The notes beneath the pieces were generated by a model. That model ran no database searches. It was not told where the DNA came from and saw only the letters and a program-made list of their open reading frames with translations. A DNA stretch of 64,000 nucleotides from a virus. The translations under genes and the position numbers were made by a program. The stretch lies in IMG/VR virus record IMGVR_UViG_3300018429_000060, positions 27,307 through 91,306 of that record; one strand, 5' to 3'. Numbering within the stretch: the stretch's first letter is position 1; each line of letters starts with the position of its first letter. Shown one piece after another: positions 3,508 through 51,524 of the stretch.

Positions 3508-3587
3508 GGGACCGTCAGGGAGCCATGGCGGCGCGAGGGGTCGGGCGGACAACCTCGCCGAGAAGGTGCCTGCCCCCAGTCCGCCAG

Positions 3588-4897: not shown

Positions 4898-4942
4898 CGG
4901 AGTCCGCTCCCCTTTCCTGCTCCAGCTCAAACCCCAGCACGC

Positions 4943-5142
4943 GCAATCCTGCATCAGCGCGTCAGCTCCAACGCGTCGACACGCGGAACCACGACCACGC
5001 ACACACGCCAACACCTGGACACGCAGTAGCGCGTCACCGCAGAAGCGCCTCAAGGCACCAGCGCGTCAGCAACAACACGCTGAACGGCCGACACGCATCT
5101 ACCCTGTCCCGCTACCGCACTGTCACGCGTGCACGCTTGAGC
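4943..5142. repeat. Degenerate 8-bp tandem array upstream of parA (putative parS centromere)
   Basis: 25 in-phase octamers, 18 starting with GC and most ending AC/GC (GCATCAGC, GCGTCAGC, GCCAACAC, GCCGACAC ...). Confidence 0.65.
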
Positions 5143-5594
5143 AGTGTAGCGGCTTACTTCTGACCCGCTGTCAGGCGTCAACACTGACGCGTAAATCTGG
5201 CTAATGCAGGTCAGAGGCCAATTTGTGCCACCCAGGGGAGAGGCTGCCACCGAGCAACCACCCACCCAGCTCGGCCTCGGCAACAGCGCAGCTGCCCCTT
5301 GACGTCCTACCTGACCGCCACCGGGGACCAGAGCCACGATAGGGTGGCACCACCGGTGCAGCGGCCGCCCCCCGATGCCTTCCGAGCCGGCCCGGTCGTA
5401 GAGCACCCCCCGTACATACGCTATTTACGGACGTGCCAGGCTGACCCCGTGCCCCCTTCGTCCAGGCGCTTTTCAGGACCTCGACCCGGCCCTGCCCAGG
5501 CTCGCCGGCGCAGCCGCCACGCGGCCCGGCTCAGCTATACGTAGACATTGAGCATGTGAAGCTAGACTAGCCGTGACCTGGGAGGCTACGGCTG

Positions 5595-9819: not shown

Positions 9820-12800
9820 ATGGCAGTCGAAGGCGGCCCGATCGCGCAAGCCGCGGCCGAGCTCGTCATGGACGTCTCCTCGTTCGGGCCCGACGTCAAG
9901 CGCAAGGTCACCGCCGCGGCGGCGGCCGCGGGCAAGGACTTCGACCGTGAGCTGATCAAGGCCACCCAGCGCACCGGCGGTGTGGTCGGCAACGGCATCT
10001 GGACCAAGGTCGAGGACGGCGCCGGCCGCGGCGGTGTCCGCGCCGGGCAGGAGTTCGACCGGGGGGTGCGGGCGGCGACCCGCCGCACCGGCACCCAGCT
10101 GGGCCGGTCCGGCACCCAGGCCGGGTTCTCCTGGGGCAACGCGTTCAAGACAGCGCTGGCGCTGGTGCTCACCGGTGCGCTGCTGCGTGGGGTGTTCGCG
10201 CCGCTGGAGGCGGTCGGCAAGGGCCTCGGGCTGGCCACCGTCGGCGCCGGCGCCGCGGCCGCCGCGGCGGGGCTGCTGCAGATCGTCGCGGCCGCCGCGC
10301 CGGCCACCGGGGTGCTGCTGCTGATCCCGGCGCTGGCGGTGGCGGCCGGCGCCGGGCTGCTCACCCTGCGGGTGGCCCTGTCCGGGATGGGGGAGGCGTT
10401 CTCGGCTGCCCTGTCCGGTGACCCCCGCAAGTTCGCCGAGGCGATCGAGTCGCTGTCGCCGGCGGCGCGGTTGGTGGCGCAGGAGTTCCAGCGGCTGGTG
10501 CCGGAGCTGCACGACATCCGTGACGCGACCCAGGAGGCGTTCTTCGGGCCGTTGCAGGGGCGGCTGACGGCGATCGCCGCCACCCTGCTGGGTCCGGTCC
10601 GGTCCGGCATGGTCGGCGTCTCGGCGGCCAGCGCCCAGGTGGCGCTCGGCCTCGGTGACATCGCGGCCCAGGCGCCCACCACGGCGCTGGTCGCCGGCGG
10701 CTTCGACCTGGCCCGCCTGGCGGTGGCGGCGCTGCTGCCCGGTGTGCTGGCGATCGTGCTCGGGGTCCGTGACCTCGGGGTGGTGGCGCTGCCGCTGCTG
10801 TCGCAGATGTCGGCGGCCACCGGTGGTGTCGCCGTCCAGTTCGGGCAGTGGCTGTCCGCGATCGCCGCGTCCGGTCAGGCGGTCACCTGGATCCAGCAGG
10901 CGCTGGCCACGCTGGCCCAGTTCGGGCAGCTGCTGCTGCAGGTCGGCGGCATCATCGGGGCCGTCCTGGGCGCCGCCCAGACCTCCGGCGCCGGTGCCCT
11001 GGTGACGCTGACGGAGCTGCTGCACAGCGTCAACGCGTTCCTGTCCGGCACCGCCGGGCAGACCGCGCTGGTCAGCATCTTCACCTCGTTGAGCCAGGTC
11101 GGTGCCGCCCTGTCGCCGGTGCTGACCGCGCTGCTGGTGCAGCTCGGCCTGATCGCCCCGTTCGCCGCCCAGATCGCCGTCGCGCTCGGCCCCGGACTGG
11201 CCTCCGCGGTCGGCTCTCTCGGGCAGGCCCTGGTTGGTCTGGGGCCCGGTTTCGTGGCCATCGCGGCCGGGCTGAGCCAAGGGTTGATCGCCGCCGGCCC
11301 CGGCATCATCGCTCTCGCCGGGGCGCTCGGGATGCTGCTCGGGTCGGTGGGTCCGCTGCTGCCCCAGCTCGGGCTGCTGGTCGGGTTGGTCGCCGGCGTG
11401 CTCGGTCAGGCGCTGGTCAGCGTCACCCCCGCGCTGATCGCCGTCGCCGGGGTGGTGCTGCGGCTGCTCACCGCGGTGGCGCCGCTGATTCCCGTGCTGG
11501 GCCAGCTGGTCGCCGTGGTGGCGGTCGCGCTCGTGCAGGCCCTCGATGCGCTGCTCCCGGCGATCGAGCCGATCGTCGCCGGACTCGTCTCCGGGCTCGC
11601 CCCCGTCCTTCCCGAACTCGCCCGCGCCTTCGCCGGCCTGGTGGCCGCCGTGGCGCCGCTGCTACCGCCGCTCGGTGCGCTGATCGGGTTCGTGCTACGC
11701 CTGGCCGGCATCGCCCTGGCCTTCCAGTTCAAGGGCCTGGCCGACGCGTTCGAGCTGATCGCGGCCGTGATCGGCCCCGTCGTCGCCGGCATCTCCCGGT
11801 TCGTGTCCTACCTGGGGTCGCTGGACTTCGGGGCGATCGCCGCCGGCATCGGCGGTGCGTTCGCCGGCGCCGGCGCCGCGATCCTCGGCTTCTTCCGCGG
11901 CCTGCCCGGCCAGGTCGGGCGGGCGCTGCTCGGCCTCGGCCGCGCCACCGGCAGCGCCTTCACCAGCGCCGGTCAGGCCATCCAGGACTTCCTCACCAGC
12001 CTGCCGGGGATGCTCCTGCGCGGGCTCGCCGGCCTGGGGCGGCTCTGGTTCACCCTGTTCACCAGCGCGCTGCAGCTGGGGCTGCAGGCCATCGGCATCG
12101 GCATCGCGTTGATCATCCAGGCGTTCATCGTGCTGCCGGGGCTGATCGGCCGCGGCCTGGTGGCGCTGCCCGGCGTCATCGCCGGCGCCTTCGCCGCCGC
12201 GTGGCGGCTCGCCGTCGACGCCACCACCGCGGCGGTCGCCGCGATCGTGGCGTGGCTGGCCGGGCTGGGCCGTGACGTCGGGTCGATCCTGTCCGCGCTG
12301 CCCGGCCAGGTCGGCGGGTTCTTCCGCGACGCGTTCGCCTCCGGCAAGGCGTGGGTGCTGGACGGGGTGACCGTCATCGTCGGCTACGTCTCGACCCTGC
12401 CGGGGCGCATCGGCGGGTTCCTGTCCGGGCTGCCCGGCCAGATCGGCGCGATCTTCCGCAACGCGTTCGCCTCCGGCAAGCAGTGGGCGCTGGACGGGGT
12501 CAACACCATCGTCGGCTACATCGCCGGCCTCCCCGGCCGCATCGGCGCCTTCGCCGGGCAGATGTTCGACGCCGGCGCCCGGCTGGGGAGCCGCCTGCTC
12601 GACGGGCTGCGTCAGCTCGGGTCGTTCGTGTCCGGGCTGGGGCGGGCGTTGCTGAACTACGTCATCGACGGCATCAACCGCGGCATCAGCTCGGCCTGGA
12701 AGCTGCCCGGTGCGCCGCCGCAGATCCCCCGCATGGCCAAGGGCGCCATCGTCGACAAGGCCACCCTCGCCCTGCTCGGTGAGGCCGGCCGCGAGGTGGT

Positions 12801-13020
12801 CATCCCGCTGACCAAGCCGGCGCGGGCGGTGCAGCTGGCCGCCGACTCGGGCCTGCTCGACCTGCTCATCCGCCAGGGCGCGCTGCGGCCCCGCGGCGGC
12901 GACGGCGCCGTGCAGCAGGTCGTGATCAACGCCCCGATCACGGTGCAGGCGCCGTACTCCGACCCCGAGCTGGTCGCCCTGGCCACCGTCGACCGGCTGC
13001 TGCGTGAGGCGGAACTGTGA
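9820..13020 (+). CDS. Phage tape measure protein
   Basis: 1066 aa Ala/Gly/Leu amphipathic repeats; C-terminal IPRMAKGAIV..ALLGEAGREVVIPL motif. Confidence 0.92.
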   Translation: MAVEGGPIAQAAAELVMDVSSFGPDVKRKVTAAAAAAGKDFDRELIKATQRTGGVVGNGIWTKVEDGAGRGGVRAGQEFDRGVRAATRRTGTQLGRSGTQAGFSWGNAFKTALALVLTGALLRGVFAPLEAVGKGLGLATVGAGAAAAAAGLLQIVAAAAPATGVLLLIPALAVAAGAGLLTLRVALSGMGEAFSAALSGDPRKFAEAIESLSPAARLVAQEFQRLVPELHDIRDATQEAFFGPLQGRLTAIAATLLGPVRSGMVGVSAASAQVALGLGDIAAQAPTTALVAGGFDLARLAVAALLPGVLAIVLGVRDLGVVALPLLSQMSAATGGVAVQFGQWLSAIAASGQAVTWIQQALATLAQFGQLLLQVGGIIGAVLGAAQTSGAGALVTLTELLHSVNAFLSGTAGQTALVSIFTSLSQVGAALSPVLTALLVQLGLIAPFAAQIAVALGPGLASAVGSLGQALVGLGPGFVAIAAGLSQGLIAAGPGIIALAGALGMLLGSVGPLLPQLGLLVGLVAGVLGQALVSVTPALIAVAGVVLRLLTAVAPLIPVLGQLVAVVAVALVQALDALLPAIEPIVAGLVSGLAPVLPELARAFAGLVAAVAPLLPPLGALIGFVLRLAGIALAFQFKGLADAFELIAAVIGPVVAGISRFVSYLGSLDFGAIAAGIGGAFAGAGAAILGFFRGLPGQVGRALLGLGRATGSAFTSAGQAIQDFLTSLPGMLLRGLAGLGRLWFTLFTSALQLGLQAIGIGIALIIQAFIVLPGLIGRGLVALPGVIAGAFAAAWRLAVDATTAAVAAIVAWLAGLGRDVGSILSALPGQVGGFFRDAFASGKAWVLDGVTVIVGYVSTLPGRIGGFLSGLPGQIGAIFRNAFASGKQWALDGVNTIVGYIAGLPGRIGAFAGQMFDAGARLGSRLLDGLRQLGSFVSGLGRALLNYVIDGINRGISSAWKLPGAPPQIPRMAKGAIVDKATLALLGEAGREVVIPLTKPARAVQLAADSGLLDLLIRQGALRPRGGDGAVQQVVINAPITVQAPYSDPELVALATVDRLLREAEL

Positions 13021-13044
13021 CCCCGCGCAGTGTGAGGAGCGGTC

Positions 13045-36945: not shown

Positions 36946-37851
36946 CTAGTGGTGCACGTCGAGGTAGTCGGCGATCATCTGGTCGAGTAGCTGCCACGGC
37001 TTGCCGGGCTCGACGGTTCCCGAGTCCACCGCCGCCTTCAGGGCGCGGGTCAGGGCGGCCGCGGTGGCTGCCGGCACGGTGCGACTGCCCAGCACGACCT
37101 CCAGGCCCACGTGGCCGCGGTGTCGCGGTTCGGTGGACATCGGGTCCAGGTAGCCGTCCTGCAGGTCGGTCAGGTGTCGTTCGGTGAGCGCGACGAGGAT
37201 GCCCATGGCGGTGGCCACGTTGCCCACGTTGTGCGCCGAGTGCGCCGAGGCGAGCGCGTCCAGGGTGGGCTGGTAGTCCTGGTAGGCGGCCAGCCACCGT
37301 TCGTCGGAGGTGCGGCCCAGCTGGTCCAGGGCGTCGCGGGCGGCGTCGGCCTCGCCGGCCAGGAACACCAGGTTCACCGTGTGGAAGGACAGGTTGGCCT
37401 CCGACAGCGGTTCCAGCGCGATCCGATCGAGCAGGTCCAGGGTCTTGTCGTCCAGGCCGGCGTAGGCGCGTTCGTCGATGTCGTCGATGCCGTCGTAGAG
37501 CTGTTTGAGGATGGCCAGGTCGTCGTCGCCCTCGATGGCGTTGTGCGACAGCTGCATCGCTAGCTGCCGCGCCTTGGGTAGGTCGTCGGTGACGAGCAGG
37601 AACCAGGCTTCCTCCAGGTCGGCGGCGATGCCGGCCTGGACTCGGTGGTTGCCCGACAGCACCAGCTCGTGGCCTTCTGCGTACTCGCCGGCGCCGCTGT
37701 AGATGAGCGGGGTGGAGGTGAGGGCGCCGTCGGTGCGGATGTTGGAGACGAGCCGGTCGAACTGTTCCTTGGTCATGTAGCGGGCGTTGACGTCGAGCAG
37801 GGTCAGGTCGGTCAGCCGGCGCCGCACCGGCAGCGGCTCGGACAGCCTCAC
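36946..37851 (-). CDS. ParB/Srx N-terminal domain protein
   Basis: NARYM...FDRLVSNIRTDG, VLSGNHRV, QLSHNAIEG; GTGA coupling. Confidence 0.85.
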   Translation of the reverse strand: MRLSEPLPVRRRLTDLTLLDVNARYMTKEQFDRLVSNIRTDGALTSTPLIYSGAGEYAEGHELVLSGNHRVQAGIAADLEEAWFLLVTDDLPKARQLAMQLSHNAIEGDDDLAILKQLYDGIDDIDERAYAGLDDKTLDLLDRIALEPLSEANLSFHTVNLVFLAGEADAARDALDQLGRTSDERWLAAYQDYQPTLDALASAHSAHNVGNVATAMGILVALTERHLTDLQDGYLDPMSTEPRHRGHVGLEVVLGSRTVPAATAAALTRALKAAVDSGTVEPGKPWQLLDQMIADYLDVHH

Positions 37852-38288
37852 CGCAACGGTCCCCGCACCACGCCGGCGGCCTCGTCGACGATCACCAGGT
37901 CGGCCGACAGTCCCTTGATCGGACCCGGCTGCCGTGGTCGCACCGCCGCGGCGTACTCGGCGGCGGCCACCGCCGCCAGCAGGCGCGGCCGGTCCTGCTC
38001 GGTGTCGCCGTAGATGGCCACCGCGCCGTCGACCAGCTGCACGCGCCATCCGTCGCCCGACCACACCACCCCACCCGGCTCGTCCGGCTCCGGCAGCAGC
38101 GCCTGCGACTGACTGATCAGCCGCACGGCGTGGCTCATCTGCTGCCCGGCGGCCTGCAGCGCCGGCACCAGCTGGCCCAGCCACGCGGCCACCTCGCCCA
38201 GCGACGCCACCAGCTCCCGCTGCAGCCGGCCGTGCGTCTCGTCCGGGTCGGAGGTGTCGTCCGGGTCGGTGTCGGGGAAGCCGGTCAT
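37848..38288 (-). CDS. Hypothetical protein with terminase Walker-B-like tail
   Basis: AGGAG RBS; ends IKGLSADLVIVDEAA. Confidence 0.6.
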   Translation of the reverse strand: MTGFPDTDPDDTSDPDETHGRLQRELVASLGEVAAWLGQLVPALQAAGQQMSHAVRLISQSQALLPEPDEPGGVVWSGDGWRVQLVDGAVAIYGDTEQDRPRLLAAVAAAEYAAAVRPRQPGPIKGLSADLVIVDEAAGVVRGPLR

Positions 38289-38878
38289 AGTGCGACTCCT
38301 GCGTGTTGGTCGTGCATGATGTCGCCGGTCCACAGCGCGAGCTCGGCGGCCAGGACGAGGTCGTCGTGGCCGGTGGACGCCTCGTGCTTCTGGTAGCCGG
38401 TGCTGGTGGGCCGGGCGCGGAACCGGCCGAGCTGGTCCCCGAACGCCCGCGCGTTGGGCAGCTCCGGGGGGATGGTCACGCCGCGTTGTTCCAGGGCGAC
38501 CTGCAGCACCTCGGTCAGACGGTGCTTGCCCACGACGTACTCGTCGGGGTTGCTGTGGGTCAGGGTGCGGCCGGAGCTGATGCTGACCGCCACGATGTGC
38601 AGGTCCGGGCCGGCCTTGCGGGCCATCTCGACGACCGCGGCGCCGATGCCGGTGGCGTCGATGGTGGCGACCACCGGGTAGCCGGCGTCGACGAGCTCCT
38701 GGGCGACGGTGACCAGCAGGTCGGCCAGCTGCTGGTACGGGGTGCCGAGCTCGATGTTGCCGATGGAGAGCAGGTCCCACAGCGGCCGGTGCGAGTTCGG
38801 CCGCAGCCCCACGGTGCGCAGCGCGGCGAGCGCCGCCGGGTCCTGCTCCTTGCCGACGTCGAGGCCGAGCGAGATCAC
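38285..38878 (-). CDS. Stand-alone terminase large subunit nuclease (RNase H-like) domain
   Basis: LGLDVGKEQD, IDATGIG, HDDLVLA..LA.W: acidic catalytic set intact. Confidence 0.85.
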   Translation of the reverse strand: MISLGLDVGKEQDPAALAALRTVGLRPNSHRPLWDLLSIGNIELGTPYQQLADLLVTVAQELVDAGYPVVATIDATGIGAAVVEMARKAGPDLHIVAVSISSGRTLTHSNPDEYVVGKHRLTEVLQVALEQRGVTIPPELPNARAFGDQLGRFRARPTSTGYQKHEASTGHDDLVLAAELALWTGDIMHDQHAGVAL

Positions 38879-39159
38879 CGGCCGTCCCCGGCGAGGTCGG
38901 CGCCGTAGCCGCTCAGGGCGTGCTGCAGGGTCAACCAGTGGCCGGTGTCGCGGGCGGCGGCGACCCCGAGGGCGGCGCGGATCATGGTGGCGGCCAGCCG
39001 TTCGTCGCTCAGGTCACCGACCAGGTTCCCCGACGCCGTCAGGTGGGTGCCGTGGTTGTCGCAGATCGTGACGTGCACCATCAGCATCGGCTCGGTGCCG
39101 TCGTCGTCGTGGTGGTTCTCGACGGTGATCGGCACGTCGGTCCTCGAGGTCGTGGTCAC
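38875..39159 (-). CDS. Hypothetical protein
   Basis: GTGA coupling at both ends. Confidence 0.6.
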   Translation of the reverse strand: MTTTSRTDVPITVENHHDDDGTEPMLMVHVTICDNHGTHLTASGNLVGDLSDERLAATMIRAALGVAAARDTGHWLTLQHALSGYGADLAGDGR

Positions 39160-40547
39160 CGCGCCACCCCGGTCACCACCACCGGCCCCGCCGCCGCGTC
39201 GGCGGCCGTGGGGGTGAGGTGGGTGTGTTTGGCCTGCCACAGCTCCAGCGCCTCCGCGAGCGTCCACTGTCCGAGTGGCCCGCCGTACTGCAGCTGGTAG
39301 GTGTGGATGCCGTCGTCGCAGGGTTTGCGGCTGGTCAGTTTCACGCCGGGGATGCCGCGGCCGTACTTGGCCGACGTCGGGTTGTTGGTGAACGCCGTGG
39401 TGGCCCAGCCGAGGACCCGCTTGGACAGGGCCCGCTGCACCAGCAGCTGCGCCTCGTGGCTGATCGCGGCCATCACCACGAGCTTGGACAGCCGCCGCCA
39501 CTTCGACGGGGCGACCGCGAAGTCGGACATCAGGTAGGCGTCCAGCCCGAACTTCGGCGGCAGGTACCCGAACGCCCCGATGATCTTGCCGCCGGTGGAC
39601 ACCGCGCAGGAGAACAGCGGCGCGCCGGGGGCGATGCCCCGTCCCAGGTAGGCCGAGCGCAGCCCGTTGAACTGCGGTCCGGTCAGCGGGTGCAGCCGCA
39701 GGTCCTCACCGAGGTCGTCCTCGGGTGCCAGCCGGGCCATCAGCACCGGTTCGGTCTTCTGGTGCGGGCCGACGTAGCGGGCGATGCCCGGCTGGGCGAA
39801 CACCCAGATCGGCATCGCCCGCGGCCCGGTCTGCACGAACCCGACGCGGTAGGGCTCCAGCTGCGGCAGCTGGTAGTGCAGCCCGAGCAGCCAGTGCGGC
39901 CGGTCGATGACCAGCTGGATGATCTCGTTCTTGCCGTCGTCGTCCAGGATCTCGTAGGACGGCTCCGGCCAGTCGAAGTGGTCCTCGATGCCCTTGAACA
40001 TGGTCTCGTAGCCGGCCGCCCAGAACGGCGGGAACGACGCCACCGGCGCCTCCGGCGGGGCCTGCCGCAGGTACTCGCGCACGTCGCGGGCGTCGAACGA
40101 GGACAGCCGCAGCGTCGCCCTGGCGAGCTTGGCCACCGTGTCGGCGTGCAGGGTCGGCCACTGGTCACGGTAGGCGGCCACCATCCGCCGGTGGTAGGCG
40201 CCGGTCTTGCCGACGAAGGAGAACCAGCGGGTGCCCAGCATCAGCGTGGCCAGGGTGCCGATGCCGTCGTCGAGGTAGTCGTAGAGCCAGGACAGCTCCT
40301 CGACGAACTCGTCCTTGACGGTGAACGGCACCGGCTGCCCGGCGAACTGCCACCCCAGGGCGCACGAGTACGGGTTCACGTCGTTGGAGTGCAGCCGGAA
40401 CTCCCGCTCCGGGCAGGTCCCGGCCAGGGTGCGTTCGATGGTCAGGTTCCCGGAGCAGCCCACATAGACGTCGGCGCCGGCCGGCCACAGCCGGGCGTGC
40501 TGGGCGACGATGCTGCGCATCTCGGCCGGGATGGTGCCCTGGAACAC
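39156..40547 (-). CDS. Putative DNA-modification protein (MTase-like N-domain + GNAT/Mom-like C-domain)
   Basis: GGAGG RBS + GTG; VYVGCSGN, LHSND, SFPPF (atypical motif IV); C-terminal GKIIGAFGY..YLMSDF..RLSKLV..TTAFT..SAKY GNAT-like pattern. ORF secure, function inferred. Confidence 0.65.
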   Translation of the reverse strand: MFQGTIPAEMRSIVAQHARLWPAGADVYVGCSGNLTIERTLAGTCPEREFRLHSNDVNPYSCALGWQFAGQPVPFTVKDEFVEELSWLYDYLDDGIGTLATLMLGTRWFSFVGKTGAYHRRMVAAYRDQWPTLHADTVAKLARATLRLSSFDARDVREYLRQAPPEAPVASFPPFWAAGYETMFKGIEDHFDWPEPSYEILDDDGKNEIIQLVIDRPHWLLGLHYQLPQLEPYRVGFVQTGPRAMPIWVFAQPGIARYVGPHQKTEPVLMARLAPEDDLGEDLRLHPLTGPQFNGLRSAYLGRGIAPGAPLFSCAVSTGGKIIGAFGYLPPKFGLDAYLMSDFAVAPSKWRRLSKLVVMAAISHEAQLLVQRALSKRVLGWATTAFTNNPTSAKYGRGIPGVKLTSRKPCDDGIHTYQLQYGGPLGQWTLAEALELWQAKHTHLTPTAADAAAGPVVVTGVAR

Positions 40548-40624
40548 GCTCGGGCCTCCGCAGCACAAATCTGGGCTGGGGCGCCCGGCCACGGATGCCA
40601 GTCGACGCACAACAACGGTGAGTG

Positions 40625-40696
40625 AGCGCCGGCACGGCCTCGAACCGCCCCTACCGCCTGGAATGGCGGTCGTGCTACCAGCTACACCACCAGCGC
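40625..40696 (-). tRNA. tRNA-Gly(UCC)-like RNA, non-canonical
   Basis: GCGCUGG UG GUGU-AGCUGGUA-GCAC G ACCGC-CAUUCCAG-GCGGU AGG GGCGG-UUCGAGG-CCGUG CCGGCGC U: cloverleaf, G1-C72/C2-G71/G3-C70, U73; 8-nt anticodon loop, imperfect T stem, no encoded CCA. Confidence 0.8.
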
Positions 40697-40819
40697 ATGA
40701 CTCGTCGCGGATGGTAACGCACCGCAGGTCAGGCTGCCCCTAGACTCCCCGGTGACGATCACCGGGCCTGGCGCACATGGCCGCCGGAAGCACTCGTGCT
40801 TTCGGGAGGGCCCGCCGGC

Positions 40820-41488
40820 GTGTCGACGACCTTCCGTTACGCCTCCGGCCGGGACATGTGGGACCGGCAGCTGGGTGAGCCGGCCGAGGAATACGACTGG
40901 TTCCTGCACTGGCGCAACGAGGCCCACCGCCGCACCTACGTGGCCACCGCGCTGAAGTTCGGGATCAGCCCGGTCACGGTGACGCGGGTCGCGAAACAGA
41001 ACCGCTGGCCCGAACGGCTGCTGGCGTGGAAGGCCGACAACTCGCGGCTGCTGCACGAGCGGTTCACCGATCTGCTCGAACAGTCGATGGTGCCGTTCGC
41101 GCAGGGCATGGTGCGGATGGCCGCCCACACCGCCCGCGCCCCGCTGGACAAGATCCCGGCCGATCGGGCGATGACCGCGTTCGCCGCGGCCCTGCGGGTG
41201 ATCAAGGAACCGGGCATCGCGGACCTCATCCGCATCTCGGCTGCGTCCGGGATGGCCAACCGCGAGATCGACCTCGCCGCGGTCATCCTCGACCGGCTGG
41301 CCGCACAGTTCCCCGAGGCCCACGACGCGGTCCTGGACGCACTGGACGCCGCCACCCAGAACCCCGCCGGGCCGCTGGTCCTCGACGCCGCCCCCGTCCC
41401 GGCCGCCGTCCCCGCCGGCGCCGGCGGCGCTGTCGACGGTGGTGTCGACGACGGGGACGACTGCGTGATCGACCCAGGGAACGGCTGA
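40820..41488 (+). CDS. Terminase small subunit-like protein
   Basis: WDRQLGE..EYDWF, HTH, RW.ER..AW; directly upstream of the terL ATPase. Confidence 0.7.
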   Translation: MSTTFRYASGRDMWDRQLGEPAEEYDWFLHWRNEAHRRTYVATALKFGISPVTVTRVAKQNRWPERLLAWKADNSRLLHERFTDLLEQSMVPFAQGMVRMAAHTARAPLDKIPADRAMTAFAAALRVIKEPGIADLIRISAASGMANREIDLAAVILDRLAAQFPEAHDAVLDALDAATQNPAGPLVLDAAPVPAAVPAGAGGAVDGGVDDGDDCVIDPGNG

Positions 41489-41492
41489 CCCC

Positions 41493-42317
41493 ATGGCGTC
41501 CGTCACGGTGCTCTCGGAGTTCCTGGCCCGTCGCGACCCGGCCCGGATGATGCGCCAGGCCGGGATGCCCCCCGACACGTGGCAGTCCACCCTGCTGCGC
41601 CGCCGACCGCACCGGGCGCTGGTCACCACCTCCCGGCAGGCCGGCAAGAGCAGCGTCGCCGGCGCGATGGGCCTGCACCGCGCCGCCGAGAAGCCCCGCC
41701 AGACCATCGTCGCCGTCTCGCCCACCCAGCGGCAGTCCGCGCTGCTGGTGTCGAAGGTCCGCCGCTACGCTCAGGCGCTCGGGCTGCAGCTGGCCCGCGA
41801 CAACACCCTGTCGCTGGAGCTGGCCAACGAGTCCGTCGTGTACGCGCTGCCCGGCCACCCGGACACCGTCCGCGGCTACTCCCCCGACCTGCTGATCATC
41901 GACGAGGCCGCGTACACCACCGAAGCGCTCTACACCGCGTGCCTGCCGATGCTCGCCGCCACCGGCGGCGACCTCATCGCCATCTCCACCCCGAACGGCA
42001 AACAGGGCTGGTACTGGGCCGAGTGGTCCGGGCAGGGCGCACCGGGCTGGATGAAGATCCAGGTCCCCTACACCCGCATCCGGCGCATCAGCGCCGAGTT
42101 CATCACCTCCCAGCGGGCGTCGATGTCGCGGGAGCGGTTCTCCACCGAGTACGAGTGCGCGTTCAACTCCTCCACGTTCGGCCTGTTCAACGCCGGCGAC
42201 CTGGCCGCCGCGCTGCAGGCCGAGCCGATGGCGGCCGGCGGCGGTGGCCTGCCCGACGCGCGGGAGATCATGCGCCGCAACCGGGACCGGTTCGCCGCCG
42301 GGCAGGCCGCCTCATGA
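41493..42317 (+). CDS. Terminase large subunit, ATPase domain only
   Basis: PDTWQ, SRQAGKS, SPTQRQS, RGYSPDLLIIDEAA, ISTPNG, F.TEYECAF; stops at 274 aa. Confidence 0.92.
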   Translation: MASVTVLSEFLARRDPARMMRQAGMPPDTWQSTLLRRRPHRALVTTSRQAGKSSVAGAMGLHRAAEKPRQTIVAVSPTQRQSALLVSKVRRYAQALGLQLARDNTLSLELANESVVYALPGHPDTVRGYSPDLLIIDEAAYTTEALYTACLPMLAATGGDLIAISTPNGKQGWYWAEWSGQGAPGWMKIQVPYTRIRRISAEFITSQRASMSRERFSTEYECAFNSSTFGLFNAGDLAAALQAEPMAAGGGGLPDAREIMRRNRDRFAAGQAAS

Positions 42318-43141
42318 GCACCCCGCCGCTGGCGCCGCGGCAGCAGCGCACCGACGCCCCCGCCGGCCCCGACGCCCGCGTCCTGGCCCTGGACATCGGC
42401 CTCTACGGGCACCTCGGGTCGATCAGCTCGATGTTCTGGTACCAGCGCGGTGGGCTGCTCCACGCCCACCAGGCGCAGCTGCTGCCCGAGGGTGCGACCC
42501 TGCTGGACCAGCTGGACATCCTGGAGGCGACCGCCGCCTCCTACGAGGAGTACCGGCGGATCAGCCCGGTGGTGGTCCTCGGTGTCACCGTGCTGTCGCC
42601 GGTCGGCCGCCGCGAGGTCCGCGGCCACCTGGAGTCCTGGTTCAACCCGCCGTGGCGGCGGCGCCTGGTGGCCATCGGGGACTACGCCGGCGAGCACATC
42701 GCCGTCCGCGGCCTGGTCTCCCGCAAGAAGCTGCGGGACCTGATCTCGACCCGGCTGACCGAGCACACCCTCACGCTCACCCCCGAGCAGCACGACGCCG
42801 TCGCCCTCTACACCGGCCGCCGGGAGAAACCCGGCCGCGACCCGGACGACGAGTGGCGCACCGACGAGGTCGACGCGGTCGCCCTGCCGGTGGCGCTGTC
42901 CTGCCTCGGCGCGACGGCGCTGCTGCCGGCGCCGATGCCCACCCCGCAGCAACGCCAACGCGACCTCGAGCGCGCGATGCGCGCCTGGCAGGTGCAGCTG
43001 GACCTGTCCAACGACGACGCCTGGGACCGCGCCGTGCGCCACGGCCACCCGCACCACCAGACCACCGCCGCTGTCAGCGGCGCCGTGCCCATGCCCGACC
43101 GGTCCACCCCGACCTTCGGCAGCCTGCGATGGAAGGACTGA
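42314..43141 (+). CDS. Degenerate terminase nuclease-like protein
   Basis: VLALDIG, VSRKKLRDLI, EWR.DEVDAVALPVAL echo the terL C-domain; several acidic residues altered. Confidence 0.55.
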   Translation: MSTPPLAPRQQRTDAPAGPDARVLALDIGLYGHLGSISSMFWYQRGGLLHAHQAQLLPEGATLLDQLDILEATAASYEEYRRISPVVVLGVTVLSPVGRREVRGHLESWFNPPWRRRLVAIGDYAGEHIAVRGLVSRKKLRDLISTRLTEHTLTLTPEQHDAVALYTGRREKPGRDPDDEWRTDEVDAVALPVALSCLGATALLPAPMPTPQQRQRDLERAMRAWQVQLDLSNDDAWDRAVRHGHPHHQTTAAVSGAVPMPDRSTPTFGSLRWKD

Positions 43142-43143
43142 CC

Positions 43144-44808
43144 GTGCGCCTCATGAGCAAGGTGACGGACCTGCTGCGGTGGGCCACCCCCGCCGCACCG
43201 GCCGCGCCCGAACCGCCGGCGTGGACCCCGCCGCCGCTGTCCACCGCGGCCGCCCTGCCCGTGCCGGCCATCTACCGGCCGGTGGTCGCCGCGGCCGCGA
43301 GCGCCGCCCTGGCCACCGCCACCACCTACGCCGGCGTCGCCACCGGCGCCCGTACCGGCGCGGGTGTGCTCACCGCGGCCGTCCCGACCGCCGGCGACAT
43401 CGGCGCCGTCACCGCCTCCCGACTGCCTCGCGCCCTGCAACCACCGCGGCCGCGGGAGTGGCAGGAACGCGCCTGGGCGGCCTGGCGGCACTGCGGCGAG
43501 GCCCGCCAGGCCGTCGAGTGGATCTGCAACAACCTGTCCCGCTGCCACCTCTACATCGGCGACGTCGACCCCGCCAGCGCCGGCGACCCCAAACCCGCCG
43601 CCACCCCCGGCCTGGCCGGCGACATCCTCGCCGAGCTGCACAACGGCCGTCTCGGGCAGAGCGCCATGCTGGCCCGCCTGGGGCTGCACCTGCTGGTGCC
43701 CGGCGAGAGCTGGCTCGCCGGCTACCCCCGCCCACCCGCCGCCGGCGGCACCGCCGCCGGCGATGACGGGCAACCGGCCACCCAGTGGAGCGTGCTGTCG
43801 CGCCGCGAGTGGTCCGAGGTCACCGACACCCACATCCGGTTCAAGCTCGCCGACCACCCCAACCCCGGCGCCGACGGCTGGGTCACCTTCGCCTCCGACG
43901 AGGTCGTGCTCATCCCGATCTACGTCCCCGACGCCGAGGACGCCACCACGGCCACCAGCGCGTTCGAGGCCGCACTGGACACCCTTGACGAGTTGTTCGG
44001 CCTGTCGCGGCGCGTCGCCGTCGACATCAAGTCGCGGCTGGCCGGCGCCGGGGCACTGCCCATCCCCGAGTCGGCCACCCTGCCCACGCCGGGCGCCTCC
44101 GACGGCCTCAACGGCCTGCACGGCGACCCGTTCGTCGCCGCGTTCGCCCGCGCCGCCAAGACCGCCATCCAGAATCCCGACGACGTGGCCGCGCTGCTGC
44201 CGATCTTCTTCCGGGTGCCCGACGAGTCGTTGACCGGCAACGGCTTCAAGCTGATCACCTTCGCCACCCCGTTCGACGCCCAGGTGCCGGTGCTGCGCCA
44301 GGACGCCCGCCGCACCCTGGCCGCCGACCTGAACATCCCGGCCAGCATCGTGCTCGGCGTCGAGGACCTGAACCACTGGTCGATGTGGGGCGTCACCGAG
44401 GACGCCCTGAAGTCCCACATGGGACCGCTGGCGGCGATCATCTGCACCCAGCTGACCATCAAGGTGCTGTGGCCGGCGCTGCGCGCCGCCGGCGAGACCG
44501 ACGTCGAGAAGCGCTGCATCTGGTGGGATCCGTCCGAGGTCGTGCTGCGCCCGGACGGCTCCACCGTCGCGCTCACCGCGCACCGCGACGGCGTCATCGG
44601 CGGCAAGGCCACCCGCCGCGAGATCGGCTTCTCCGAGGAAGACGCCCCCACCGCCGAGGAGACCGCGGCCCGCGCCGCCGCCAACCAGCCCCCACCGGCC
44701 GGCGCCCAGGGTGAGGACGGCGGGCAGGCCACCCCGTCGCAGCGGCCCAACCCACCCGCCGACGACGGCGACAGCACCCCCGACGGCACCCCACCCGCCC
44801 AGCAGTAA
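43144..44808 (+). CDS. Phage portal protein (actinophage type)
   Basis: WQERAW..GEARQ..W..N.LSR, L.VPGE.WL, SRLAGAG, NHWSMW. Confidence 0.85.
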   Translation: MRLMSKVTDLLRWATPAAPAAPEPPAWTPPPLSTAAALPVPAIYRPVVAAAASAALATATTYAGVATGARTGAGVLTAAVPTAGDIGAVTASRLPRALQPPRPREWQERAWAAWRHCGEARQAVEWICNNLSRCHLYIGDVDPASAGDPKPAATPGLAGDILAELHNGRLGQSAMLARLGLHLLVPGESWLAGYPRPPAAGGTAAGDDGQPATQWSVLSRREWSEVTDTHIRFKLADHPNPGADGWVTFASDEVVLIPIYVPDAEDATTATSAFEAALDTLDELFGLSRRVAVDIKSRLAGAGALPIPESATLPTPGASDGLNGLHGDPFVAAFARAAKTAIQNPDDVAALLPIFFRVPDESLTGNGFKLITFATPFDAQVPVLRQDARRTLAADLNIPASIVLGVEDLNHWSMWGVTEDALKSHMGPLAAIICTQLTIKVLWPALRAAGETDVEKRCIWWDPSEVVLRPDGSTVALTAHRDGVIGGKATRREIGFSEEDAPTAEETAARAAANQPPPAGAQGEDGGQATPSQRPNPPADDGDSTPDGTPPAQQ

Positions 44809-44892
44809 CCCCCTCCACCAGCGCATCGTGAGCAAACCTCACGACGCGGCGTGGTGCTGCTCGGCGAACCACTGTTAACCGAGAGGAATACG

Positions 44893-46374
44893 GTGAAACC
44901 AGCCTCCGACCCCGCCGGCCGTGGCGCCGTGGTGCTGGATCACCCTCGCCTCGTCGGCCTCAAACGCACCGCCGCCGGCCTCGCCCTGCCCCGCTCCGTC
45001 GACTTCCTGGAGCCACCCGAGCGGCTGCTGGAGCTGCCCACCGCCACCACCCCGGACGTGCTCGACGAGATCGTGTTCGGCTGGCTCGCCGAGCACTTCG
45101 CCGTCAGCACCAAGACCGGCACGACGTACTGCTCCTGCATGTCGGTGTACCTGCCGTGGTGCTCGGCCGAGACCGTCGACCCGCTGCTGATCACCCGCCC
45201 GCAGGCGTCGCGGTTCGCCGGCTGGCTCGCCCAGGCCGCCTCCGGCGTCACCGACCGCGTGCGCTCACCGTCGCGGCGCAACCAGATCCTCTCGGCGTGC
45301 TCGTCGCTGGTCGAGTACGCCATCGACGCCGACGTGCGCCCCACCGCGTTCCCCAACCCGTTCGCCCGCGTGAAGCGCCCGGTGGTCGACCGCCACCCCA
45401 AGGCCGGCGTGCCGCTGACCGTGTCCCACGTCAACCAGCTGATCCTGTCCGCGCGGGCCGACCACCTGCTCGGCGGCGTGCTGGGCAAGCTGCTCGTCGC
45501 CATGATGGCCAGGCTCGGGCTGCGCCCCGGTGACGTGTGCCGGCTGAACCTGGGCGGCGTCGCGGACGACGCCCACGGCTCCTACCAGCTGTCGGTGCCG
45601 GTCAAGGGCGGCCGGCTGCTGTCGCGGTGGCTACCCGCCGACATGGCCAGCGACTTCTACACCTACGCCCACCGGGTGCGCGTCGCCCCCGACCACGACG
45701 GCCGCCCGGATCCGCTCGGCGTCGACCCGCTGTTCGTGCACCCGCGGCGCCGGCGGCGCCTCAACACCGACGACGTGCTGCGCCTGGTGCGCCGCTCCCA
45801 GCTGGCCGCGCGGGTGCTGCCGTCGAGCCGGGTGTGCCCGCGGGACCTGCGGCCGTTCTTCAACACCCTCGCGCGGGCGCAGGGCGCGACGCTGGAGGAA
45901 CGCCAGGTCGGCCTCGGCCACGCCAGCGCGAAGACCACCGAGCTGTACGACCGCACGGTGTGGGCGCGCGAGCACGACCCGGCCATCCGGGTCAGCGCCG
46001 CGTTCGACGACTACCCGGCCGAGACCCGCCTCGGTCAGCTCGTCCCCGACCGCCGCTGGGCGCCGCCGGTGCAGGCCGGCTGTGACTGCACCCCACAGTG
46101 GCCGCAATTGCACGTCGACCTGTCCCCCGTCGGTGTCGACCAGACCGCGGTGTGCGAGATCACCGAGCAGCACGAACCCGGCGTGCACCAGCTGCAGCCC
46201 TACTGCCGCCGCTGCCGCGTCGCCTACCCCGGCCCGTTCCGCGTGGCCCGCGTCCTGGACGACCCGCACGGCCGGTTCCTCGACGAGGCCCGCGCGGGGC
46301 TCACCGACGCCGCCCTGTACCCGGAAGCTGTCAACCGCCGCGAGGAACGCCGACGCCGCGACGACACCACCTAG
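44893..46374 (+). CDS. Tyrosine recombinase/integrase with C-terminal Cys-rich extension
   Basis: LGLRPGDV, VKGG, PRDLR, LGHASAKTTELYD; tail CDC..CRRC. Confidence 0.9.
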   Translation: MKPASDPAGRGAVVLDHPRLVGLKRTAAGLALPRSVDFLEPPERLLELPTATTPDVLDEIVFGWLAEHFAVSTKTGTTYCSCMSVYLPWCSAETVDPLLITRPQASRFAGWLAQAASGVTDRVRSPSRRNQILSACSSLVEYAIDADVRPTAFPNPFARVKRPVVDRHPKAGVPLTVSHVNQLILSARADHLLGGVLGKLLVAMMARLGLRPGDVCRLNLGGVADDAHGSYQLSVPVKGGRLLSRWLPADMASDFYTYAHRVRVAPDHDGRPDPLGVDPLFVHPRRRRRLNTDDVLRLVRRSQLAARVLPSSRVCPRDLRPFFNTLARAQGATLEERQVGLGHASAKTTELYDRTVWAREHDPAIRVSAAFDDYPAETRLGQLVPDRRWAPPVQAGCDCTPQWPQLHVDLSPVGVDQTAVCEITEQHEPGVHQLQPYCRRCRVAYPGPFRVARVLDDPHGRFLDEARAGLTDAALYPEAVNRREERRRRDDTT

Positions 46375-49173: not shown

Positions 49174-50190
49174 ATGTCCGCCGATGTCGATTCAATGTTC
49201 AGCGTTCGCGAGGTGCCCTGGCACCGCGAGGGCATCGTCGTCCAGGAGTACCCCGGTACGTGGGCCGAGGCGCGCGAGCTCGCCGGCCTCGGCTGGGAGC
49301 CGCGGGTCGAGGGCCAGTACCGGCTCGTCGGCGTCAACGAGGACGGCACCCCGCACTTCGAGGAGGTGCCGGACTACAAGTACGTCGTCCACGGCGGCAC
49401 CAACGCCATCCTCCACTCGGCCACCAGCACCTACGAGCTGATCAGCCACGAGGACATGGGCGCGATCGTCGAGGCGATCCTGGAGACCCCGGAGGTCCGG
49501 TACGAGACCGCCGGCTCGCTCGGCGGCGGCAAGCGGGTGTGGGCGCTGGCCCAGCTCGGCGACCTCGTCGAGCTGCCGGGCGACCCGTCGCCCACCCGGC
49601 GGTACCTCGCGCTGATGAACAGCCACAACGAGACGTCCTCGCTGCGGGCCCTGGGGACGGGGGTGCGGATCGTGTGCGCGAACACCTGGCACGCCGCCGA
49701 CGTCGGCGCCGAGCGCTCCGGCACTGCGTACGCGTTCAAGCACACCAAGAACTGGAAGCTGCGGGTCAAGGAGGCCCGCGCCGCCGTCACCGCGGTGCAC
49801 GCCCATCACGACAAGTACATCGAGCGGGCGCGGGCGCTGCTGGCGATCCGGGTGACCAGCGCCCAGGTCGACGAGTTCATCAACGCGTTCGCCGTGGAGC
49901 GCACGCTGATGAACACCAACGTCCGCCGGGGCGACCTGGAGCAGTACCTGGCCGCGAAGCCCTACGTGGCCACCGGGATGGCCTCCACCGTGGCGTCGCT
50001 GCGGTCGATCATCGCGTCGCCGACCTGCGCGGGGCTGGAGCCGACGGCGTACCAGCTGGTGCAGGCCGCCGGCGAGTTCGCCGACCACGGGCGGCCGGCG
50101 CAGACGCCGGAGACCCACTTCACCCGCACCATGATCAACATCGAGCCGATGAAGAAGGTGGCGACCCAGCTGGTCCGCGCCTACGCCTGA
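49174..50190 (+). CDS. DUF932 (LGT_TIGR03299) family phage/plasmid protein
   Basis: MFSVREVPWH, ETAGSLGGGKRVW, NSH, VRIVCANT, KHT. Confidence 0.9.
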   Translation: MSADVDSMFSVREVPWHREGIVVQEYPGTWAEARELAGLGWEPRVEGQYRLVGVNEDGTPHFEEVPDYKYVVHGGTNAILHSATSTYELISHEDMGAIVEAILETPEVRYETAGSLGGGKRVWALAQLGDLVELPGDPSPTRRYLALMNSHNETSSLRALGTGVRIVCANTWHAADVGAERSGTAYAFKHTKNWKLRVKEARAAVTAVHAHHDKYIERARALLAIRVTSAQVDEFINAFAVERTLMNTNVRRGDLEQYLAAKPYVATGMASTVASLRSIIASPTCAGLEPTAYQLVQAAGEFADHGRPAQTPETHFTRTMINIEPMKKVATQLVRAYA

Positions 50191-50756: not shown

Positions 50757-51524
50757 TTGCATCGACCAGCGCAACCCTCGCGGCCCGACCGCGACGACAC
50801 CACGGTGGCCGCGCTGCACGAGATGGTGATGACCATGTTCCGCCCGGCCGGGGCGCCGCTGCAGCTGCGCTGCCCGGCCACCACGGCGTTTCAGCAGCTG
50901 TGGCAGGTCACCACCGAGACGATGTCGTCGGCCTGGTGTGACCGGTTCGCCGCCGACTACGCGCGGTTCCTGTGCGCGACGATCCGCGAGATCCAGACCC
51001 GGCACCAGGTCCTCGATCGCGACAGCTACCTGGCGTTGCGCCGCGAGACCGGCGGCGTGCTGCACCTCACCGACCAGATCGAGTGGGTCGGCCGGTTCGA
51101 GCTGCCGCCGCAGGTGGCCACCCAGCCGACGATCACCGAGCTGCGGTCGGTGGTGGCCGACGTCGTGGCCTGGATCAACGACGTGCAGTCGGTGGAGCGG
51201 GAGCTGGCCCGCGGCGACCGGACGCACAACCTGGTGCTGGTGGTCGAGGCCGACCGGGGCTGCGGCCGCGAGCAGGCGATCGCCGAGGTGGTGGCGATGA
51301 CCACGCTGGCACTGCGCCGGGTCGACGAGCTCGTCGACGCGGTGTCGGCGCTGTGCGGCCAGCTGGGCCTGGCGGGCGAGTACCGCCGGCGGGTCGAGCG
51401 CTACGTGGTGGGCTGCCAGGACGTGATCGCCGGCTACTACGACTGGTCGGGGCGGTCGTCGCGCTACGGGCCGCCGGCCGGCGCCGCGCCGGTGGTCGAC
51501 GACCTGCTCACCAGCGGTGCGTGA
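50757..51524 (+). pseudogene. Class I terpene synthase, N-terminally truncated
   Basis: YLALRRETGG (pyrophosphate sensor R), NDVQSVERE (NSE), HNLVLV, WSGRSSRY; no DDxxD helix. Confidence 0.7.

What the first reader, a model, noticed from the sequence alone, without database searches (positions are those of the whole stretch)
38285..44808. Terminase large subunit split over divergent operons, with two nuclease-domain paralogues
Seen: terS, a 274-aa ATPase-only terL, a degenerate nuclease-like gene and portal on +. An intact-looking RNase H-like terminase nuclease (GLDVG/DATGIG/HDDLV) is a separate gene on -, inside the tRNA/modification operon. Each has its own coupled start, so this does not look like a simple frameshift. 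Known: TerL is normally one ATPase-nuclease polypeptide. Inference: a multi-subunit packaging motor in which cutting is separately regulated, with the degenerate copy acting as portal adaptor or inhibitor.
Basis: partly seen in the sequence, partly recalled or inferred. Interest (0 to 1): 0.7.

Follow-up and report, generated by a model that had tools for sequence, protein, structure and literature searches.

The report
Three-gene phage terminase, two nuclease folds
This actinobacterial prophage encodes its DNA-packaging enzyme, normally one protein, as three conserved genes: a motor ATPase, an altered nuclease-like protein beside it, and an intact nuclease on the opposite strand. That offers a natural way to separate the structural and the cutting roles of the terminase nuclease domain.

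Summary
On the + strand, terS (40796-41488), a 274-aa ATPase-only TerL (41493-42317), a 275-aa ORF (42314-43141) and the portal are closely spaced; the ATPase/orfX junction is an ATGA overlap. A 197-aa gene on the - strand (38285-38878) carries every catalytic residue of the G20c terminase nuclease.

The 275-aa ORF ("orfX") has no sequence relatives outside its own clade. Its AlphaFold model (pLDDT 88) matches terminase nuclease domains first (G20c Z 14; the top 14 hits are all TerL nucleases). An invariant Gly replaces the metal-B aspartate.

This is neither a frameshift nor decay:
- The same layout, with ATGA/GTGA overlaps, occurs in three relatives at 64-76% identity.
- About 38 homologues of each piece exist.
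- dN/dS of orfX is no higher than that of portal or ATPase.

The wider TerL family is usually split. Of about 160 loci, 88 have ATPase plus an adjacent nuclease gene, some on small plasmids. In the ATPase tree the fused Thermus/Meiothermus phage TerLs are the sister group, with moderate support.

Roles are inferred, not shown: orfX as a non-catalytic structural or portal-side subunit, and the minus-strand nuclease as the cutter. No paper describing this was found. The scan has noted the same design before on other DNA (e1-5931766). It is a new variant of a known kind.

The parts
40796..41488 (+). terS-like gene (start 40796 or 40820). Its stop lies 4 nt before the ATPase start.
   Evidence: phrog_6299 terminase small subunit, E 2.8e-6. 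Conserved upstream of the ATPase in L086-L088. Junction sequence.
41493..42317 (+). TerL-N: ATPase-only large terminase subunit, 274 aa, with intact Walker A (G51 K52) and Walker B/catalytic Glu (D137 E138).
   Evidence: Terminase_6N 45.1 bits against a cut-off of 22; phrog_7579 E 6e-40. More than 100 homologues of 230-300 aa. Invariant motif columns in A1. It is the only TerL ATPase in the 91-kb record.
42314..43141 (+). orfX: TerL-nuclease-fold paralogue, 275 aa. The motif I Asp is kept (D27). The motif II (metal-B) Asp is replaced by invariant G90. It has a conserved helical C-terminal extension of about 70 aa. An ATGA overlap joins it to the ATPase gene.
   Evidence: AF2 pLDDT 88, pTM 0.82. 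VIA-align: the top 14 hits are all TerL nucleases, best G20c 5m1f at Z 14.0. Foldseek and ESM Atlas neighbours are terminase nucleases. hhalign to the nuclease family is collinear over 179 columns, E 4e-4. There are 38 homologues at 51-70% identity.
43144..44808 (+). Portal protein. The start is uncertain (43129 ATG, 43144 GTG or 43153 ATG); a GGAAGGA motif lies 6 nt before 43144.
   Evidence: phrog_776 portal, E 9.6e-92. 25-33% identity to actinophage portals. Junction sequence.
38285..38878 (-). TerL-C: stand-alone canonical terminase nuclease, 197 aa, with the full catalytic set (D7, D13, D74, H171, D172, D173).
   Evidence: AF2 pLDDT 94. Foldseek top hit is the G20c TerL nuclease, E 1e-7. 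The profile hits 5m1f and 5tge at E 1e-12, with catalytic residues aligned. 28% identity to the C-terminus of the Thermus phage Riverbug TerL. Homologues sit directly after the ATPase gene in 88 loci.
36946..40547 (-). Five-gene minus-strand operon that holds the nuclease, each junction a 4-bp overlap. Order of transcription: Dam-like/GNAT-like (39156-40547), a 94-aa ORF (38875-39159), the nuclease, a 146-aa ORF (37848-38288), and a ParB-N-like gene (36946-37851).
   Evidence: PF22555 E 4e-92 and PF22559 E 3e-50; phrog_7405 E 6.5e-60. Gene calls and overlaps. The order ParB-nuclease-Dam/GNAT is conserved in L086-L088.
44851..46374 (+). Tyrosine-recombinase-like gene immediately after the portal (context).
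   Evidence: phrog_1 integrase, E 3e-19; Pfam Phage_integrase only E 0.0025. Conserved after the portal in L086-L088.

Best explanation
Shown: a clade of temperate siphovirus-like prophages of Pseudonocardiaceae-type actinobacteria (relatives in Kutzneria, Saccharothrix, Amycolatopsis and Prauserella) encodes the large terminase as three separately translated, conserved proteins.
1. TerL-N is an intact packaging ATPase.
2. orfX is a fast-diverged copy of the terminase nuclease fold. It lacks the metal-B aspartate, has gained a conserved helical tail, and is translationally coupled between the ATPase and portal genes.
3. TerL-C is a canonical nuclease with every catalytic residue. It lies in the divergently transcribed operon with ParB-like and Dam-like/GNAT genes.

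The design belongs to a large TerL family in which ATPase and nuclease are usually two adjacent coupled genes.

Inferred mechanism: the motor ring is built from TerL-N together with orfX. orfX takes over the non-catalytic jobs of the nuclease domain, such as contact with the portal or procapsid and holding DNA or the ring. The free TerL-C nuclease joins in trans to cut concatemers at the start and end of packaging. Its supply is set by a different promoter.
For: - Gene calls and coupled starts.
- ATPase family and intact motifs.
- TerL-C equals the G20c-type nuclease by sequence profile (E 1e-12). D7/D74/D173 align with D294/D347/D429, which mutagenesis shows are indispensable. The fold agrees.
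- orfX has the TerL-nuclease fold: Z 14.0 to 5m1f, 14 terminase nucleases ahead of any other fold; ESM Atlas neighbours agree.
- The hhalign map is D27=D7 and G90=D74. G90 and T92 are invariant in 38 sequences.
- Conservation: the same order and 4-bp overlaps in L086, L087 and L088. At least 15 contig lengths recur in all three homologue lists, which suggests, but does not prove, that those contigs carry all three genes.
- Selection: omega of orfX is 0.40-0.60, against 0.48-0.64 for the ATPase and 0.43-0.76 for the portal.
- There is one copy of each piece and no other TerL in the 91-kb record.
- Family context: 88 split-adjacent loci, 22 of 80 non-redundant pairs with a 4-bp overlap, and 119 of 133 nuclease domains with D-D-D.
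- Precedent for a kept but inactive nuclease fold in a packaging motor: phi29 gp16 CTD (PMC7672431).
Against: - No experiment or complex model ties orfX to the ATPase or the portal. Its role is inferred from position, fold and the missing Asp.
- orfX keeps D27 and conserved acidic residues at 184/185/187, plus invariant His33/50/52 and Glu71/79. A non-canonical active site therefore cannot be excluded.
- Sequence-level homology of orfX to the nuclease family is weak (hhalign probability 35%).
- The dN/dS values are inflated and compressed by about 97% GC3, so they only show that orfX is no less constrained than its neighbours.
- The operon partners of the nuclease (ParB-like, Dam-like/GNAT) leave room for a non-packaging role.
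- The IMG/VR record is estimated to be 75% complete, so a further terminase outside it is not excluded.
Confidence: 0.55

Rival explanations
1. orfX is the working packaging nuclease, with a non-canonical active site. The minus-strand TerL-C nuclease has been recruited to another job alongside the ParB-like and Dam-like/GNAT proteins, for example resolving branched replication intermediates, degrading host DNA, or acting in a DNA-modification pathway.
For: - orfX sits where the nuclease gene sits in 88 related loci and is coupled to the ATPase and portal genes.
- It keeps D27 and a conserved acidic cluster WRxD[ED]xDA, plus invariant His and Glu residues.
- TerL-C is embedded in a coupled operon of DNA-modification-type genes.
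- UniRef names the Kutzneria orthologue of orfX 'RuvC-like resolvase'.
Against: - The metal-B Asp is an invariant Gly, and the equivalent D347N change nearly abolishes G20c nuclease activity.
- TerL-C, not orfX, is the sequence orthologue of the nuclease domain of the sister fused TerLs and of the adjacent split genes, and it keeps all catalytic residues.
- Resolvases score lower than terminase nucleases against the orfX model (Z 8.6-9.3 against 10-14).
Confidence: 0.2
2. ATPase and orfX are joined into one TerL-like chain by programmed -1 ribosomal frameshifting or another recoding event, so only the extra nuclease is truly separate.
For: orfX lies in the -1 frame relative to the ATPase gene. 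That frame is open from 41579 onward. The two products together would be 549 aa, the size of a TerL.
Against: - There is no in-frame X_XXY_YYZ heptamer in the last 150 nt of the ATPase gene in any of the four loci.
- All four keep an ATGA or GTGA stop-start overlap with otherwise unrelated junction sequence.
- The N-terminus of orfX and the C-terminus of the ATPase vary in length among homologues.
- In the wider family the nuclease gene lies in all three relative frames.
- Long open alternative frames are expected at 72% GC.
Confidence: 0.05
3. The arrangement is a sequencing or assembly frameshift, or a decaying terminase in a defective prophage.
For: The record is a provirus estimated to be 75% complete. 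The nearest isolated phages have a fused 415-417-aa TerL.
Against: - The layout is the same in independent assemblies at 64-76% identity.
- There are about 38 homologues of each piece, without truncation.
- Catalytic motifs are intact.
- orfX has no similarity to a shifted TerL C-terminus.
- The constraint on orfX is comparable to that on the portal.
Confidence: 0.02

Closest known systems
One-chain large terminases of Thermus/Meiothermus phages (G20c and P74-26 TerL, PDB 5m1f/5tge; Thermus phage Riverbug, Meiothermus phages MMP17 and MMP7)
   Same: - The ATPase is 43-46% identical to Riverbug and MMP17 TerL.
- TerL-C aligns to the G20c and P74-26 nuclease with all catalytic residues.
- The ATPase tree puts the Riverbug/MMP17-type fused clade next to the window clade, SH-aLRT 91.
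- Both nuclease-fold models match G20c best.
   Different: Those enzymes are single 415-485-aa chains, with the nuclease fused and one nuclease fold. Here there are three genes, two nuclease folds, and the active one on the other strand.
Two-gene (ATPase + adjacent nuclease) members of the same TerL family, in prophage-like loci, MAGs and small plasmids (e.g. Salinibacter ruber pSR11, a 16.3-kb Streptomyces virginiae plasmid)
   Same: Homologous ATPase-only and stand-alone nuclease genes. Translational coupling is frequent. The nuclease catalytic residues are kept.
   Different: There the nuclease follows the ATPase directly and no orfX exists. orfX is confined to the window's clade. No paper on this family was found.
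phi29 gp16 C-terminal domain (vestigial nuclease)
   Same: An RNase H/terminase-nuclease fold kept in a packaging motor after loss of catalytic residues. It is proposed to bind DNA and to attach the motor to the procapsid (PMC7672431).
   Different: phi29 has no active nuclease at all and its vestigial domain is fused to the ATPase. Here the altered fold is a separate protein and coexists with an intact nuclease.
The scan's earlier finding e1-5931766 (another genome) and e1-4443250 (another lineage)
   Same: e1-5931766 describes the same three-piece layout in an actinobacterial phage. e1-4443250 describes a separate nuclease plus a conserved inactive copy.
   Different: They concern different DNA. 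These are AI notes, not publications, and were not re-tested here beyond my own analysis of this window.

Membership tests
Large terminase ATPase domain (Terminase_6N / T4 gp17-type): gene 41493-42317 | Profile match over the curated cut-off | tested here: met
   PF03237 45.1 bits against a cut-off of 22. 46 bits in the six-frame search. phrog_7579 E 6e-40.
Large terminase ATPase domain (Terminase_6N / T4 gp17-type): gene 41493-42317 | Walker A lysine and Walker B Asp plus catalytic Glu | tested here: met
   G51, K52, D137 and E138 are invariant in 31 aligned homologues.
Canonical TerL (one chain, ATPase followed by nuclease) | Nuclease domain fused C-terminally in the same polypeptide | tested here: not met
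   The ORF ends at residue 274 with TGA. The same is true in L086-L088 and in more than 100 homologues of 230-300 aa.
Terminase nuclease domain (RNase H/RuvC-like, G20c type): gene 38285-38878 (-) | Fold of the terminase nuclease | tested here: met
   AF2 pLDDT 94. Foldseek top hits are the G20c, E217, HCMV, P74-26 and SPP1 TerL nucleases, E 1e-7 to 1e-5.
Terminase nuclease domain (RNase H/RuvC-like, G20c type): gene 38285-38878 (-) | Three metal-binding aspartates (G20c D294, D347, D429) | tested here: met
   D7, D74 and D173 align to them in the profile-to-5m1f alignment and are invariant in 39 sequences. Their role in G20c comes from PMC5389553.
Terminase nuclease domain (RNase H/RuvC-like, G20c type): gene 38285-38878 (-) | Pfam Terminase_6C over the gathering score | tested here: not met
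   13.2 bits against a cut-off of 22.6, and no six-frame hit. The family-specific profile reaches PDB terminases at E 1e-12, so this is a sensitivity limit of the Pfam model, not evidence against membership.
Terminase nuclease domain: orfX 42314-43141 | Fold of the terminase nuclease | tested here: met
   AF2 pLDDT 88. VIA-align gives Z 14.0 to 5m1f (157 aa, rmsd 3.5). Ranks 1-14 are all TerL nucleases, and the next fold scores Z 9.6. ESM Atlas structure neighbours are all Terminase_6C/3C.
Terminase nuclease domain: orfX 42314-43141 | Complete catalytic carboxylate set | tested here: not met
   The motif II position is invariant Gly90, with no acidic residue at 89-92. Motif I D27 is kept. The register of motif III is ambiguous (D184, E185 or D187).
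Terminase nuclease domain: orfX 42314-43141 | Detectable sequence homology to terminase nucleases | tested here: inconclusive
   - hhalign: probability 35%, E 4e-4, collinear over 179 columns.
- No Pfam, PHROG or PDB sequence hit.
- The profile finds only its own cluster among 1.84 billion representatives.
RuvC-type Holliday-junction resolvase (the name UniRef gives an orfX orthologue) | Best structural match to RuvC/Ydc2/poxvirus resolvases and a D-E-D-D tetrad | tested here: inconclusive
   Resolvases match at Z 8.6-9.3, below all 14 terminase nucleases.
Portal protein: about 43144-44808 | Profile match to a portal family | tested here: met
   phrog_776 E 9.6e-92. tblastn finds annotated portals in 875 actinophage records.

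The most novel reading that the evidence does not exclude
orfX is a dedicated non-catalytic stand-in for the nuclease domain. It builds the portal-proximal tier of the packaging motor together with the ATPase. The true nuclease is a free subunit, made from a different promoter, that engages only to start and finish packaging. Translocation and cutting would then be physically and temporally uncoupled in a natural system. The same principle, an active cutter plus a kept inactive copy, may have arisen more than once among split terminases.
Probability: 0.35. Interest if true: 0.75.

Novelty: new variant of a known kind. Interest (0 to 1): 0.58.

Why it matters
How the terminase nuclease is kept silent during translocation and switched on at headful or cos sites is still debated. 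So is which of its jobs are structural (portal docking, DNA grip) and which are catalytic.

In this natural system the ATPase, an inactive-looking nuclease fold and an active nuclease are separate proteins. Each could be deleted, titrated or mutated on its own.

One host, Kutzneria viridogrisea DSM 43850, is a cultured strain that carries the prophage.

The work also shows that two-gene terminases are the common state of a large, unstudied TerL family. That family spans bacteria, archaea and small plasmids, which matters for annotation and for terminase-sensing defence systems.

Tried and rejected
- **Frameshift artefact or decay.** Rejected on conservation and intact motifs.
- **-1 frameshift fusion.** No slippery site in four loci.
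- **Sequence annotation of orfX.** Pfam, PHROGs, PDB sequence profile, phmmer/hmmsearch with the nuclease HMM, and a profile search of 1.84 billion representatives gave nothing beyond its own clade.
- **Link to the 'RuvC-like resolvase' of cluster-B-type mycobacteriophages (OrangeOswald gene 8).** It lies between TerL and portal on the opposite strand, but hhalign and HMM gave no relation to either nuclease-fold gene.
- **Isolated phages with the split form.** Of 50,697 records, only three fused relatives were found.
- **A second terminase in the 91-kb record.** None found.
- **Literature.** Searches for split or two-gene terminases and terminase pseudonucleases returned no relevant paper.
- **dN/dS.** It is of limited value at about 97% GC3.


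Full report
**Setting.** The window is 72% GC. It is the 3' 64 kb of a 91,306-base IMG/VR provirus record that CheckV estimates to be 75% complete. The record is a real tailed phage.
- It has a MuF/protease-type head morphogenesis protein, a major head protein (phrog_777), a major tail protein, a head-tail adaptor, a tape measure and minor tail proteins.
- The packaging genes lie about 30 kb from the head genes. They are followed by a tyrosine-recombinase-like gene, an HTH regulator, a DUF932 protein and a terpene-synthase-like gene, not by head genes.

**Check of the observation.** GC3 frame plots and a GC3-based gene call give five coupled genes on the minus strand and a coupled run on the plus strand.
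- Minus strand: 40547→39156, 39159→38875, 38878→38285, 38288→37848 and 37851→36946.
- Plus strand: terS 40796/40820-41488, ATPase 41493-42317, orfX 42314-43141, portal about 43144-44808.
- The ATPase ORF ends in TCA TGA, and the ATG of orfX overlaps that stop.
- The nuclease gene starts with a GTG that overlaps the upstream stop.
- Family assignments: Terminase_6N for the ATPase (45 bits against a cut-off of 22); phrog_7579, a 239-position ATPase-only 'terminase large subunit' family, at E 6e-40; phrog_776 portal; phrog_6299 terS; PF22555+PF22559 for the Dam-like/GNAT gene; phrog_7405 with ParB-like hits for 36946-37851.

**The minus-strand gene is the true terminase nuclease.**
- It is 28% identical to the C-terminal part of the fused TerL of Thermus phage Riverbug (E 2e-7).
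- A profile of 39 homologues hits the G20c and P74-26 TerL nuclease crystal sequences at E about 1e-12.
- In that alignment D7, D13, D74 and H171-D172-D173 fall on G20c D294, D300, D347 and H427-D428-D429. D294, D347 and D429 are indispensable in G20c (PMC5389553).
- These columns are invariant in the family.
- The AF2 model (pLDDT 94) matches G20c first by Foldseek.

**orfX is a second nuclease fold with an incomplete active site.**
- Sequence methods see nothing outside its clade. There was no Pfam, PHROG or PDB sequence hit, and only its own cluster turned up among 1.84 billion representatives.
- Its 38 homologues, all of the Saccharothrix/Kutzneria/Amycolatopsis/Prauserella type, are 51-70% identical with 48 invariant columns.
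- The AF2 model is confident (pLDDT 88, pTM 0.82). It has the β1-β2-β3-α-β4-α-β5 RNase H order, followed by a long helix and three further helices.
- An exhaustive structural comparison puts 14 terminase nuclease domains first (Z 14.0 to 10.0, G20c best). Generic RNase H/ASKHA folds and resolvases follow at Z 9.6 or less. Foldseek and the ESM Atlas agree.
- Profile-profile alignment to the nuclease family is collinear over 179 columns, though weak (probability 35%, E 4e-4). It maps D27 to motif I, invariant G90 to the metal-B Asp, and the conserved WRxD[ED]xDA to the HDD motif with an uncertain register.
- So the fold is shown, the loss of one canonical ligand is shown, and inactivity is inferred.

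**Not an artefact.**
- Three independent relatives have the same genes in the same order: an IMG/VR contig, the Kutzneria viridogrisea DSM 43850 chromosome, and a 64.9-kb contig that appears to be from Prauserella sediminis, judged by matching contig length. ATPase identity is 76, 72 and 64%.
- All three have ATGA or GTGA overlaps at the ATPase/orfX junction, and none has an in-frame slippery heptamer.
- At least 15 contig lengths recur in all three homologue lists, suggesting those contigs hold all three genes.
- Nei-Gojobori omega is 0.40-0.60 for orfX, 0.48-0.64 for the ATPase, 0.46-0.73 for the nuclease and 0.43-0.76 for the portal.
- The absolute omega values are unreliable because third positions are about 97% GC. 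They do show that orfX is no less constrained than essential neighbours.
- The record holds one ATPase, one nuclease and one orfX, and no other terminase.

**Family context.** A degenerate-pattern search with an ATPase alignment returned 160 loci from Planctomycetota, Acidobacteriota, Chloroflexota, Actinomycetota, Pseudomonadota, methanogenic archaea and viral contigs.
- In 88 loci a stand-alone nuclease gene follows the ATPase gene.
- In 14 loci the two are fused.
- In 41 loci a longer chain carries a C-terminus that my nuclease HMM does not see.
- In 14 loci the nuclease lies elsewhere. Among these only the window clade has it on the opposite strand, about 3 kb upstream.
- Of 80 non-redundant adjacent pairs, 59 are within 20 nt of each other and 22 share the 4-bp overlap.
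- 119 of 133 nuclease domains keep D-D-D.
- Split pairs also sit on small plasmids without capsid genes: Salinibacter ruber pSR11 (11.2 kb, with a P4-type primase and ParA) and a 16.3-kb Streptomyces virginiae plasmid.
- Of 401 genomes from the order that contains Kutzneria, nine carry the ATPase: six split-adjacent, two fused and one of the orfX type.
- Among 50,697 deposited phage genomes, only three relatives exist and all are fused: Riverbug, MMP17 and MMP7.
- In the ATPase tree the window clade (support 100) is sister to that fused clade (SH-aLRT 91). Both lie inside a mostly split radiation, and the architecture label needs at least 4-9 changes. Fusion and fission have therefore happened repeatedly.
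- Tandem extra nuclease genes occur in other members: up to seven in one Planctomycetota MAG. In L097 and L160 the second copy has Lys at motif I. Duplication followed by loss of catalysis is thus a plausible origin for orfX, but it is not shown.

**Mechanism.**
- Shown: three separate, conserved, coupled genes; an intact ATPase; an intact nuclease; and an altered nuclease fold with an added conserved helical tail, lying between the ATPase and the portal.
- Inferred: orfX keeps the structural roles of the nuclease domain, as proposed for the vestigial nuclease of phi29 gp16 (PMC7672431).
- Inferred: TerL-C cuts in trans, and its divergent operon allows separate dosing or timing.
- The main rival reverses the roles. 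It cannot be excluded, because orfX keeps several invariant acidic and histidine residues.

**Novelty.**
- No paper on two-gene terminases of this family, or on a terminase with a separate inactive nuclease paralogue, was found in the searchable library.
- Databases carry only automatic names: 'terminase family protein', 'Terminase large subunit gp17-like C-terminal domain-containing protein' and 'RuvC-like resolvase'.
- The scan itself has already reported the same three-piece design on other DNA (e1-5931766) and several other split terminases.
- I class it as a new variant of a known kind.

Noticed in passing
L010:10722-15640 (Planctomycetota MAG); also L011, L028, L034 (three copies each) and L008, L012, L041, L094, L097, L160 (two copies each): Arrays of stand-alone terminase-nuclease genes follow the ATPase gene, with up to seven in tandem. 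Most have intact D-D-D motifs. In L097 and L160 the second copy has Lys at motif I. I have no explanation for why a packaging module would carry many active nuclease paralogues.
   Followed up: partly
L170 (Salinibacter ruber pSR11) 3217-5258; L171 (Streptomyces virginiae plasmid) 10745-13043: The small-ORF / ATPase / nuclease trio sits on 11-16-kb plasmids that have primase, ParA or integrase genes but no capsid genes. In L016 and L021 it lies next to recombinases with no portal nearby. This suggests satellite-like elements that bring their own terminase.
   Followed up: partly
window 37848-38288 (-): A 146-aa ORF between the nuclease and ParB-like genes ends in LSADLVIVDEAAG, close to the Walker B stretch of the ATPase (SPDLLIIDEAAY). 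It gives marginal hits to phrog_7579 and to the ATPase HMM (E about 0.01). It is absent from L086-L088, as is the 94-aa ORF at 38875-39159. It may be a relic of the rearrangement.
   Followed up: partly
window 44851-46374 (+): A 507-aa tyrosine-recombinase-like gene lies directly after the portal and is conserved there in L086-L088. The Pfam match is weak (E 0.0025), while phrog_1 gives E 3e-19.
   Followed up: no
window 40624-40696 (-): ARAGORN calls a tRNA-like gene with an undetermined, two-base anticodon at the head of the minus-strand operon. Another first-stage note (e1-5964580) covers it.
   Followed up: no
window 50805-51524 (+) and 49195-50190 (+): A terpene-synthase-like gene (PF19086, E 1e-31) and a DUF932 gene, both with very high GC3, lie inside the prophage downstream of the packaging module.
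   Followed up: no
G000:C1 7460-20305 versus window 40796-44808: Terminase and portal genes are separated from the MuF/protease, capsid and tail genes by tens of kilobases of accessory genes. This is unusual for a siphovirus head module.
   Followed up: partly
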